This document shows positions 48,001 through 51,000 of a stretch of DNA of 64,000 nucleotides, piece by piece. Location of the stretch: NCBI RefSeq assembly GCF_003334335.1, contig NZ_QOWQ01000001.1, one strand, 5' to 3'. A program made the position numbers. Origin of the DNA: Escherichia coli (lineage in GTDB: Bacteria; Pseudomonadota; Gammaproteobacteria; Enterobacterales; Enterobacteriaceae). Each line of letters starts with the position of its first letter. Within the stretch, counting starts at the first letter, position 1.

Positions 48001-51000
48001 ACATAAAAATCAGGAATAAGTTGTGCAAGTCTATCATCATCAACTTGATCCATAATCTCAAACTTATTAACTTTCTTTGATGTTAAATGGGCTGTGTCAT
48101 AGTTTTCAATCCATGTGTATTCAATATTTCGCCGTATTGATTTACTTTCTCTGTTACCTTGTTGCCAGGTTCCACTCAACGCAACAGTTCCTGTTTTATT
48201 TTTTTTGTTATACATAAAGTCGATGGTAAGATTTGCTCGTCCCTGGTCATTAAAAATTACCCAATTTGCAGTGCATGTTTCGTTATATATCATTTTTTCT
48301 GCAGTGTAAGAATAGACAGTGAAGAGAATAAACCCACTGATAAAAACTAAAATAAATAATAAGTTTTTTTTATAATCAATCACGATTAACCTCACGGTAA
48401 GACAGGGTTAAACAGTTTGCCACTTCATGTTGGTTATAGTTTTTATTGCATGCCATAACAATCATCCCCGGTGAGGATTTTGCAAGAGGGAAGTATAACC
48501 ACGGATGTTTTTTACAGTTAATCCCCGAATCCAGTATCCGTGTTTTATATTTATCGAACTCTTTCAACCCATCAATTGTATCTTCTGTTACATTAAAATG
48601 GCAGCCATTAATTTCCGCAACAGTCTTGTAATCCTTGAAAAATGGCTTCGGTTGATTATTATTCCATAGCCAATATGCAGAATATGCGCCTATGACAAAT
48701 GCGCTCAACATAATTAGATGACTTTTTATATTTTTGAGGATTTTGTTATTGAAATTCTTTGCGCCACCAATGCTCTCTTTGTATCCCGCATTAACTTTTA
48801 TGGCAGGTGGGGCATTGTGTGTATGTGCGTCTGTTGACGAGTTTATTACATGATTTTGTATGTTAATGTCATTATGGATCTTGAATCCTCTTCTCGGCAC
48901 GGTTGCAATTAGCGAGTGGGTAGTATCACCAACAGCGCGAAATCCGCGTCTGATAATGGATATGTTCTGATATAACGTGTTAGTAGGCACACGCATACCT
49001 TCTTCTTCCCAGACTCTGGTGAAAAAATCTTGTTGTGCAACCACATCAGGAAAAGCTTCAAGTAGAAGTGATAAACATCGACTGGCTGGCGTTGTCAGAA
49101 CGACGTTAAGATCGGCGTTATGTACCGATATTAATTTTCGGTGCTCAGGCCAGAACTCGATATTATCGTTAATAATCCAGTACATACGTCAATAAACACT
49201 AAATCAATCGAAATGGAGATCACATAGTTTGCTAAGTATATTGGTATTTACGGCATAAATATATATTAATTTTATATTTATCATGATGATTGAAATGAGG
49301 CTTTAATGTTGCAACGTAAAACTTTACGTAAATTAACATGGTTAACATTTATGCCACTATTGTTTGTAAATTCATATTTCGTAATGCTTCTGAATTTTTC
49401 GTGTGATGGTTTTAAATACTATGGTGTTTACTCTTGAGGGGACGGCCTATTTATAAAATACGGACATTTCAATAAATGCCCGTATAAACAGAGTATGATT
49501 CTGGCTGGTCGTTGAGTATCAATGTTGGACCGAATGTGAACGAATAAATAATTCGTTTATTTTACCACCCATTCTCTTTTCGATTCGTTGCTTGTACGCG
49601 TAGATGCTACGGATATCCATATCCAGAACTTCAGCAATCTGATATGGATTATAACCAGAAACCATATACCCCATTATGGTGAATTCCATCTGAGTTAATG
49701 TGTTACCTCTGGTAAATGATAAATAACGACCAATAAATAGTTGTCTGATCTTTTCATTGGCAACATCAAGACCATCATCATTATATATGACAGCAGATAT
49801 TGCTGAGTTGTGTTTTCGCCAGTAATTAGCTAACGATTGCATATTGCGGTCGCTGACTAAAACAATCCCCATGTCAGTACTTGCAAGATAGTCAATCCAG
49901 TCTTTTTCAAGGAATAGACGTAAAAAACTTACTGAAAAATCGACAAAAATATATCCGCTTAATCTCGCATTGTGGTTTTTTGTTAAGATACCTTCTACCA
50001 CACCACGATTAAAATATGAACTTTCTTCGGGCCACATACAAAAACACGAGTTTGCGCAATACTGCAAACGCGGTGACTCTTCTGGCATTATTTGGCAATG
50101 CATTGAGCAACTATTGCATGTAAGACTTTTATAACGACTACAAAGCCCCATGTTAAGAACCTCCCTATCCGTATATAATTGCATAATTTCATTGGTTATT
50201 GATGATGTCAATACACCATGATTTTGTAATTTTGCCGGGAAAAATTGCGATTAATCTGTATTTGCTATAATTCTGAGTAAGGCATTTAAAAATGCATTTC
50301 TCGTTATCAAATATGATTATGTTTCACTGATTTAATCTTGCATGGTTGAGAGCGGTCCAGATAACTATCTCATGGTATAAGAATATCTATATCGCAAATT
50401 GTTTTTGAATGACCAGAAGATATCTTGCGAATCTAAGTTATGCATCTTAAATAGTCTTATTTAAGATGTTCAGATCTCTTTGTGTGTTTAACTAACTGAT
50501 AATACTAGGATATGACGAGAGAAGTGATAGGGTGGAATAATAACAAATGAATATTATGAAAAATGGAATGGTTCAAAATTGTAGCAATTTTGAACCATCC
50601 ACAACTGATATTAGCTAAAGAACATTACCGATACGCACAGGATACCCACGATCAGCGTAATCAGATTTCCGATGGAACGCCAGGGTTTAAGCGCCGGGAT
50701 GAGATACGTTGACAGCGTAGGCATGATGAAAAGTATCATGGCAATGAGCGGGCCGCTGATCGCGTAAATCATCGAAATCGCGTTCGGGTTAATGCAACAA
50801 ACAATGAAGGTAATCAGCGATACCAACATAATTGATAGTGCGCGGTTAAATGCACGACTTTTCTTTACACCAACCTGCTGTAGTGTTGTTTTGACGACCT
50901 CTGTGGCACCTTCAATAACGCCAAAGTACGTACCCAGGAATGATTTCGACATCGCAACTACTGCGACAATAATCCCGGAAATTGACAACCATGCTGGGGC

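What the first reader, a model, noticed from the sequence alone, without database searches (positions are those of the whole stretch)
49306..49437. Unannotated 43-codon ORF encoding a hydrophobic peptide between yqeI and yqeH
ATG at 49306, preceded by GAGG 5 nt upstream, opens MLQRKTLRKLTWLTFMPLLFVNSYFVMLLNFSCDGFKYYGVYS, which has a predicted transmembrane stretch. It lies in the AT-rich region between two regulator genes and could be a small membrane protein or just a chance ORF.
Basis: seen in the sequence. Interest (0 to 1): 0.25.

Follow-up and report, generated by a model that had tools for sequence, protein, structure and literature searches.

The report
Chance ORF in yqeH–yqeI spacer
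The 43-codon reading frame exists exactly as described, but it evolves like non-coding DNA and is broken or altered in about a quarter of E. coli genomes that carry the locus, so it is most likely a chance ORF, not a small membrane-protein gene.

Summary
An ATG ORF of 43 codons lies at 49306-49437 (+), with GAGG 5 nt upstream. It sits in the 333-bp, 31% G+C spacer between yqeI and yqeH of the ETT2 island, and RefSeq does not annotate it.

Among 5,426 complete E. coli genomes, about 3,700 carry the spacer. Of these, 587 have TGG>TGA at codon 12 and 316 have a 1-nt deletion at codon 40, while the flanking yqeH and yqeI stay intact.

- Across 18 haplotypes there are 19 non-synonymous and 3 synonymous variants (pN/pS 1.6, against 0.27 for yqeI and 0.05 for yqeH).
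- Variant density equals that of the surrounding spacer.
- Against E. whittamii the segment is 53% identical, with no third-position excess.
- An ORF this long arises in 16% of shuffled spacers, and 16% of such random ORFs are as hydrophobic.
- No Pfam, NCBIfam, PADLOC or Rfam match was found.

The spacer is a published H-NS-bound "promoter island". Its conserved elements, the yqeH terminator hairpin and a yqeI-upstream block, lie outside the ORF.

One caveat remains: a same-frame ORF persists in E. whittamii (neutral-model P about 0.015-0.07). Translation data could not be consulted.

The parts
49306..49437 (+). The 43-codon ORF (ATG...TGA). Judged a chance ORF that evolves neutrally.
   Evidence: Searches show the sequence. 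Searches show broken alleles. Searches show no coding constraint.
49297..49300 (+). SD-like GAGG, 5 nt upstream of the ATG.
   Evidence: It is conserved in the 11 E. coli haplotypes whose upstream sequence was displayed and absent at the homologous place in E. whittamii and Escherichia sp. E1V33.
49214..49242 (+). Weak sigma-70-like match (TGGAGA-17-TATATT) upstream of the ORF. It is a consensus match only.
   Evidence: 3 sites found against 4.6 expected in shuffles, so there is no enrichment.
49186..49518 (.). The yqeH-yqeI spacer, 333 bp and 30.6% G+C. It corresponds to the published H-NS-bound 'promoter island' 2986202_358 (U00096.2 coordinates).
   Evidence: for composition. PMC3661553 Table 1 for the promoter island. 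The shift of +1977 from U00096.2 to U00096.3 coordinates is my own inference.
49225..49285 (-). Conserved block upstream of yqeI, 90% identical to E. whittamii while its neighbours are 40-64% identical. It is the presumed yqeI promoter or regulatory region.
   Evidence: The function is inferred, not shown.
49450..49485 (-). Terminator-like hairpin for yqeH on the minus strand. The stem arms are 49476-49485 and 49458-49467, followed by UUUUAU. It starts 13 nt after the ORF's stop.
   Evidence: -17.4 kcal/mol in the window and -20.1 kcal/mol (z -4.2) in O157. It is conserved in E. whittamii.
48376..49185 (-). yqeI, a winged-helix regulator and the flanking gene. Used as a control under purifying selection.
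   Evidence: (pN/pS 0.27).
49519..50151 (-). yqeH, a LuxR-type regulator and the flanking gene. Used as a control under purifying selection.
   Evidence: pN/pS 0.05.

Best explanation
The ORF is a fortuitous open frame in a T-rich, AT-rich, horizontally acquired spacer, not a gene maintained by selection. The functional content of the spacer lies on the opposite strand and outside the ORF: the intrinsic-terminator-like hairpin that ends yqeH, and a conserved block upstream of yqeI that presumably holds its promoter or regulatory sites.

The strand carrying the ORF is 37% T, and T occupies 44% of second codon positions. Any frame that happens to stay open therefore reads as Leu/Phe/Ile/Val-rich and looks like a membrane segment. 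In K-12 the spacer is reported to be H-NS-bound and transcriptionally almost silent. If ribosomes ever translate the frame, that is best seen as pervasive, non-functional translation.

Shown here: the frame is disrupted, evolves neutrally and is within chance expectation. Inferred: the roles of the hairpin and the conserved block, and the absence of expression.
For: 1. Frame disruption at population scale. Diagnostic 55-nt and 53-nt probes, built so that every 28-nt seed must span the variant, find TGG at codon 12 in 3,108 genomes and TGA in 587. A 1-nt deletion that shifts the frame at codon 40 is in 316 genomes. Together at least 24% of carriers are affected. Other records show a 1-nt insertion, in-frame deletions that remove part of the hydrophobic core, and stop-codon loss giving 49-75 aa products. 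In the W12* loci yqeH and yqeI are annotated intact.

2. No purifying selection. There are 19 non-synonymous and 3 synonymous distinct variants, pN/pS 1.63, the highest of all six frames. This fits neutrality (P = 0.31) and not yqeI-like constraint (P = 6e-4). All 5 K-12 versus O157 differences are at codon positions 1 or 2. K-12 versus Escherichia sp. E1V33 gives pN/pS 1.23 against 0.24 for yqeI.

3. Non-coding rate and pattern. Variant density is 0.167 per site, like the rest of the spacer (0.08-0.25) and 4-5 times that of the flanking CDS. Identity to E. whittamii is 53%, as in unconstrained spacer, and differences by codon position are 19/14/13. Base composition is essentially the same at all three codon positions.

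4. Chance expectation.

5. Positive control. The annotated 26-aa yqeL, 1.4 kb away, keeps its frame in all 17 loci that hold it.

6. No family match in Pfam, NCBIfam, PADLOC or Rfam.

7. The spacer is listed as a promoter island bound by H-NS in all ChIP studies compared, with very low productive transcription (PMC3661553).

8. T-rich non-genic DNA is known to encode TM-like peptides by composition alone (PMC7005711).
Against: ATG and GAGG are kept in all 11 E. coli haplotypes whose upstream sequence was displayed, and the ATG in all 18 translated, although these are only 93-100% identical.

E. whittamii and Escherichia sp. E1V33 have an ORF of 41 and 36 codons in the same register, with the start shifted by one codon and also hydrophobic, despite 53% nucleotide identity. 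Under a neutral F81 simulation the frame stays open in 7% of trials, and stays open with a start codon in 1.5-3%. That is one effective observation, since the two taxa are close relatives.

The 316-genome frameshift changes only the last four residues. Translation data (Ribo-seq, tagging) could not be checked.
Confidence: 0.8

Rival explanations
1. A young, lineage-restricted small membrane peptide (proto-gene). The frame would be translated from its SD and ATG when H-NS silencing of ETT2 is relieved, and the product would insert into the inner membrane through its single hydrophobic stretch. It would be dispensable and therefore often lost.
For: SD-like GAGG at ideal spacing and an ATG conserved in E. 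coli. There is an N-terminal basic segment followed by a hydrophobic stretch. A same-frame hydrophobic ORF is retained in E. whittamii and E1V33 (P about 0.015-0.07 under neutrality). Gene callers predict it in many records. Validated E. coli small proteins can be antisense or intergenic (10.1101/511675).
Against: The W12* allele is in 16% of carriers and a frameshift in 8.5%. pN/pS is at or above 1 at every depth. There is no codon-position signature. Hydrophobicity is explained by T-richness. The ORF is absent from the current MG1655 annotation, which does include yqeL, and 'yqe' does not occur in the main text of the Weaver et al. preprint. Most Ribo-seq-detected novel sORFs in E. coli are themselves reported not to be under purifying selection (10.1101/2021.07.02.450978).
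Confidence: 0.12
2. A decaying type I toxin-like gene: a small hydrophobic toxic peptide whose translation is held down by an antisense RNA, now inactivated in many strains.
For: The size, the basic N-terminus plus hydrophobic core, and the intergenic position in a horizontally acquired island resemble type I toxins (own knowledge). Frequent nonsense alleles would fit loss of a toxin.
Against: No Rfam sRNA or antitoxin family in 5 kb even at E up to 1. No Pfam, NCBIfam or PADLOC match. The spacer is single-copy per genome (median 1 place). There is no conserved RNA structure around the start (z -0.9). The sequence evolves neutrally even in intact alleles.
Confidence: 0.03
3. The plus-strand DNA matters as RNA, not as protein. 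A transcript from the weak plus-strand promoter would run convergently into the 3' end of yqeH and modulate read-through from yqeH into yqeI. The ORF would be incidental.
For: There is a promoter-like match at 49214-49242. Promoter islands carry many start sites on both strands and make short RNAs (PMC3661553).
Against: Promoter-like sites are not enriched over shuffles (3 against 4.6). There is no plus-strand terminator and no Rfam hit. The ORF segment is the least conserved part of the spacer. Productive transcription from promoter islands is reported to be very low.
Confidence: 0.05

Closest known systems
Non-functional sORFs of 'pervasive translation', or proto-genes, in AT/T-rich non-genic DNA (Stringer et al., 10.1101/2021.07.02.450978; Vakirlis et al., PMC7005711)
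   Same: It is short, has an SD and ATG, shows no purifying selection, is hydrophobic because of T-richness, and is restricted to a lineage.
   Different: Translation of this particular ORF has not been shown, so it may not be translated at all.
H-NS-bound 'promoter islands' of E. coli (Panyukov and Ozoline 2013, PMC3661553)
   Same: The whole yqeH/yqeI spacer is one of the 78 listed islands. It is AT-rich, horizontally acquired and H-NS-bound in all ChIP data sets compared.
   Different: That concept concerns transcription initiation and silencing and says nothing about coding. The ORF is a by-product of the sequence.
Validated E. coli small proteins such as YqeL (b4683, 26 aa, 1.4 kb away in the same island)
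   Same: Both are short ORFs in the same AT-rich ETT2 region, on the strand opposite to the neighbouring regulators.
   Different: The yqeL frame is intact in all 17 sampled loci and is annotated. ORF43 carries nonsense or frameshift alleles in at least 24% of carriers and is not annotated.
Type I toxins (Hok, Ldr, Ibs, TisB, ZorO)
   Same: Size and the layout of a basic N-terminus followed by a hydrophobic core.
   Different: No antisense RNA partner, no family match, single copy, no sequence constraint.

Membership tests
Bona fide bacterial small protein gene (50 aa or fewer) | Reading frame intact across strains that keep the locus | tested here: not met
   W12* in 587 genomes and a 1-nt deletion in 316, out of about 3,700 carriers. 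Other indels and stop loss also occur.
Bona fide bacterial small protein gene (50 aa or fewer) | Purifying selection (dN/dS below 1, excess of third-position change) | tested here: not met
   pN/pS is 1.63 within E. coli and 1.23 against E1V33. Differences by codon position are 19/14/13.
Bona fide bacterial small protein gene (50 aa or fewer) | Start codon with a ribosome-binding site | tested here: met
   GAGG lies 5 nt before the ATG and is kept in the E. coli haplotypes displayed. It is not present in E. whittamii.
Bona fide bacterial small protein gene (50 aa or fewer) | Homologous ORF in other species | tested here: inconclusive
   A same-register ORF of 36 and 41 codons exists in E1V33 and E. 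whittamii, with about 27% amino-acid identity. Neutral retention has P about 0.015-0.07. More distant yqeI loci lack the yqeH-yqeI synteny.
Bona fide bacterial small protein gene (50 aa or fewer) | Direct evidence of translation (Ribo-seq start peak, tagged product, peptide) | not testable with these tools
   The held supplements are truncated or absent. The ORF is not in the MG1655 annotation, and 'yqe' does not occur in the Weaver et al. preprint text.
Small inner-membrane protein | A transmembrane helix beyond compositional expectation | tested here: not met
   The maximum KD19 is 1.63. Of random ORFs from the shuffled spacer, 16% reach it. T is 44% at codon position 2.
Type I toxin-antitoxin | Antisense or overlapping sRNA partner, or a known toxin family | tested here: not met
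   No Rfam match at E up to 1 in 47000-52000. No Pfam, NCBIfam or PADLOC match. An undescribed sRNA cannot be excluded.
H-NS-bound promoter island | Listed island, AT-rich, in horizontally acquired DNA, H-NS ChIP signal | tested here: met
   G+C is 30.6%. The spacer is listed as 2986202_358 yqeH/yqeI with H-NS class 'A' (PMC3661553). H-NS binding itself comes from the paper and was not tested here.

The most novel reading that the evidence does not exclude
The frame has stayed open since before the split of E. coli and E. whittamii because it encodes a weakly selected, H-NS-silenced single-pass membrane peptide of the ETT2 island. Only its hydrophobic character, not its sequence, would be under selection, and many lineages would have lost it as ETT2 decays.
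Probability: 0.1. Interest if true: 0.35.

Novelty: not a real feature. Interest (0 to 1): 0.07.

Why it matters
As it stands this is a negative result. It removes a candidate small-protein gene from the list. It also shows how an AT/T-rich, H-NS-bound spacer can produce an ORF with an SD, an ATG and a membrane-like look by composition alone.

If the minority reading were true, it would add one more lineage-restricted small membrane peptide to the ETT2 island. That would be of modest interest as an example of proto-gene persistence in silenced foreign DNA.

Tried and rejected
- Rfam scan of 47000-52000 at E up to 1 found nothing.
- Pfam, NCBIfam and PADLOC scans of the K-12 peptide (Pfam: K-12 only), the 69-aa variant and the E1V33 peptide gave only a sub-threshold SagF hit (17 bits against a cut-off of 70), which I treat as hydrophobic noise.
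- Ribo-seq literature was not usable. The Stringer et al. supplement is truncated to the first part of the genome. The Weaver et al. preprint has no held supplement. The published mBio and J Bacteriol versions are not held. The acid-stress Ribo-seq and smORFer supplements have no entry. The 'yqei' text hits were a substring of an unrelated protein.
- A full-text search for the peptide found no paper.
- The more divergent predicted variant P0033 led to a locus (L030) with many single-base indels and fragmented yqeI and yqeH calls. It is probably a low-quality or decaying assembly, so I did not use it.
- More distant yqeI homologues (Citrobacter, Kosakonia, Buttiauxella, Enterobacter) lack the yqeH-yqeI arrangement, so they cannot inform on the ORF.
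- The terminator scan did not flag the yqeH hairpin in the window because K-12 has a mismatch in the stem. Folding showed it.

Full report
**Observation.** The window segment is the ETT2 region of a K-12-like E. coli, in reverse orientation to MG1655. The order is yqeJ (47901-48383, -), yqeI (48376-49185, -), a 333-bp spacer, yqeH (49519-50151, -) and yqeG (50611-51840, -). The spacer is identical to NC_000913.3. It runs from ATG at 49306 to TGA at 49435-49437, has 43 codons, and has GAGG at 49297-49300, 5 nt upstream. The spacer is 30.6% G+C. In MG1655 coordinates the ORF is 2988250-2988381 on the minus strand, on the strand opposite to yqeH and yqeI.

Nothing is annotated there in MG1655 or in any RefSeq genome listed. 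The exact peptide is nevertheless on record as a 'hypothetical protein' from other pipelines, for example UniRef J7QH52_ECOLX, in a 90% cluster of 142 members.

**Is it more than chance?** No.
- An ATG ORF of at least 43 codons occurs somewhere in 16% of mononucleotide shuffles of this spacer, and in 28% if GTG and TTG starts are allowed.
- The best 19-residue Kyte-Doolittle mean is 1.63, at the conventional threshold. It is reached by 16% of random ORFs of at least 36 codons drawn from the shuffles.
- T is 44% at the first and second codon positions and 42% at the third, so there is no codon periodicity, and the hydrophobic residues follow from T at position 2.
- The window contains 144 ATG-initiated ORFs of 35-60 codons. 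Seven have an SD-like 4-mer upstream, and two of these are also hydrophobic.

**Frame conservation within E. coli.** The spacer is present in 3,734 of 5,426 complete genomes, once per genome. I aligned 17 further E. coli loci spanning 93.7-100% identity.
- The 93.7% haplotype group has TGG>TGA at codon 12, and its stop codon is changed to TGG.
- Another group has a 1-nt deletion at codon 40.
- One locus has a 1-nt insertion at codon 37.
- One lineage has lost the stop codon and reads on to 69 aa.

Predicted proteins in the public collection range from 33 to 75 aa. They include in-frame deletions inside the hydrophobic core.

To count alleles I used probes of 55 and 53 nt centred on the variant, so that any 28-nt megablast seed must contain it. 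TGG was found in 3,108 genomes, TGA in 587 and the 1-nt deletion in 316. At least 24% of carriers therefore lack the K-12 frame, and 16% carry an early nonsense codon. In those same loci yqeH and yqeI are annotated as intact, and YqeH is often the identical protein WP_001305805.1. As a positive control, the annotated 26-aa yqeL gene, 1.4 kb away in the same island, keeps its frame in all 17 loci that contain it.

**Substitution pattern.** Across the 18 haplotypes the ORF has 22 distinct single-nucleotide variants, 19 non-synonymous (including one stop gain and one stop loss) and 3 synonymous. This gives pN/pS = 1.63, the highest of the six possible frames over the same DNA. The controls are 0.27 for yqeI and 0.05 for yqeH. 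The 19:3 split fits neutrality (P = 0.31). It is incompatible with yqeI-like constraint (P = 6e-4), and Fisher's test against yqeI gives P = 0.004. All five K-12 versus O157 differences fall on codon positions 1 or 2. Variant density in the ORF is 0.167 per site. That is within the range of the rest of the spacer (0.08-0.25) and 4-5 times the flanking coding sequence (0.03-0.04).

**Other species.** A scan of one genome per species with YqeI found the yqeG-yqeH-yqeI arrangement only in E. whittamii (L011) and Escherichia sp. E1V33 (L004). Citrobacter, Kosakonia and other homologues have different neighbours. Between E. coli and these two taxa the spacer has two conserved pieces:
- A 61-nt block upstream of yqeI (49225-49285), 90% identical.
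- The hairpin after yqeH, about 75% identical.

The ORF segment is 53% identical, like the unconstrained remainder at 40-64%. Differences by codon position are 19/14/13. pN/pS for K-12 against E1V33 is 1.23, against 0.24 for yqeI.

One point favours the ORF. Both taxa carry an ORF in the same register (36 and 41 codons, start shifted by one codon, no SD) that is also hydrophobic. In a neutral F81 simulation at 53% identity the frame remains open in 7% of trials, and remains open with a start codon in the first four codons in 1.5-3%. The two taxa are close relatives, so this is one observation. Between them the ORF differs by 8 non-synonymous and 5 synonymous changes plus a stop loss.

**What the spacer does contain.** On the minus strand, 34 nt after the yqeH stop, there is a 10-bp G+C-containing hairpin followed by UUUUAU. 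It folds at -20.1 kcal/mol (z -4.2) in O157 and at -17.4 kcal/mol in K-12, which has a stem mismatch. I read this as the yqeH terminator, which is an inference.

The whole spacer is one of the 78 'promoter islands' of Panyukov and Ozoline (entry 2986202_358, yqeH/yqeI). That paper marks it as horizontally acquired and bound by H-NS in all the ChIP studies it compared. Such islands bind RNA polymerase but yield very little productive transcript (PMC3661553). The plus-strand promoter-like match upstream of the ORF (49214-49242) is one of 3 matches where 4.6 are expected by chance.

No Rfam family matches within 5 kb. No Pfam, NCBIfam or PADLOC family matches the peptide.

**Interpretation.** The most likely explanation (about 0.8) is a chance ORF in T-rich, H-NS-bound foreign DNA. 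Its membrane-like appearance comes from composition, as described for thymine-rich non-genic sequences (PMC7005711). The minority alternatives are:
- A dispensable proto-gene-like small membrane peptide (about 0.12).
- A convergent non-coding transcript (about 0.05).
- A decaying type I toxin (about 0.03).

Even if ribosome footprints exist, Stringer et al. report that most novel E. coli sORFs detected this way are not under purifying selection. Translation alone would therefore not make it a functional gene.

**Limits.**
- I could not consult ribosome-profiling or start-site data for this position, because the held supplements are truncated or missing.
- Allele counts come from diagnostic probes, not from full extraction of all spacers.
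- The sample of 18 haplotypes is not phylogenetically weighted.
- The neutral simulation ignores indels and context effects.

Noticed in passing
window 49458-49485 (- strand): The yqeH terminator-like hairpin has a K-12-type mismatch (A at 49464 where O157, the 93.7% haplotype and E1V33 have G; the E. whittamii alignment is gapped across part of this hairpin). This weakens the fold from -20.1 to -17.4 kcal/mol and might allow more read-through from yqeH into yqeI in K-12-like strains.
   Followed up: partly
window 49225-49285: A 61-nt, extremely AT-rich block upstream of yqeI is 90% identical between E. coli and E. whittamii, while the flanking spacer is 40-64% identical. It is a likely yqeI promoter, regulator or H-NS nucleation site, and its function was not examined.
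   Followed up: partly
window 49232-49348 (- strand): A 38-codon ATG ORF on the yqeI-sense strand overlaps the start of the reported ORF. It is truncated to 10 codons in two E. coli haplotypes and full of stops in E. whittamii, so it is another chance ORF in the same spacer.
   Followed up: yes
window 39170-39286 (+): This is the only other ORF in the window with the same combination of features: ATG, SD-like 4-mer upstream, 38 codons, KD19 1.63. Its context was not examined.
   Followed up: no
window 47788-47868 (+): yqeL (26 aa, annotated b4683) keeps its frame in all sampled loci but carries several amino-acid replacements (I7N, D12Y, C13W, R17Q, E18A/V). It is retained, though not tightly constrained in sequence.
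   Followed up: partly
L022 (NZ_AP027685.1) and L025 (NZ_AP027813.1): IS elements truncate the flanking regulators in some strains. IS1 removes the 3' part of yqeI and joins it to an eprH-like T3SS gene. IS903B truncates yqeH. This illustrates ongoing decay of the ETT2 regulators.
   Followed up: no
window 49519-50211 (- strand): The mechanical ORF for yqeH starts at a TTG at 50211 (230 aa), whereas RefSeq annotates 210 aa (633 nt, ATG at 50151). The longer form is also open in E. whittamii and E1V33 (230-aa ORFs). The true start was not examined.
   Followed up: no
L005-L010, L012-L014: YqeI homologues (41-49% identity; 66% over a partial match in Enterobacter sp. EA-1) occur in Citrobacter, Kosakonia, Buttiauxella and Enterobacter without yqeH upstream. 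In some they lie next to fimbria-like or other genes, which suggests that this ToxR-like regulator moves independently of ETT2.
   Followed up: no
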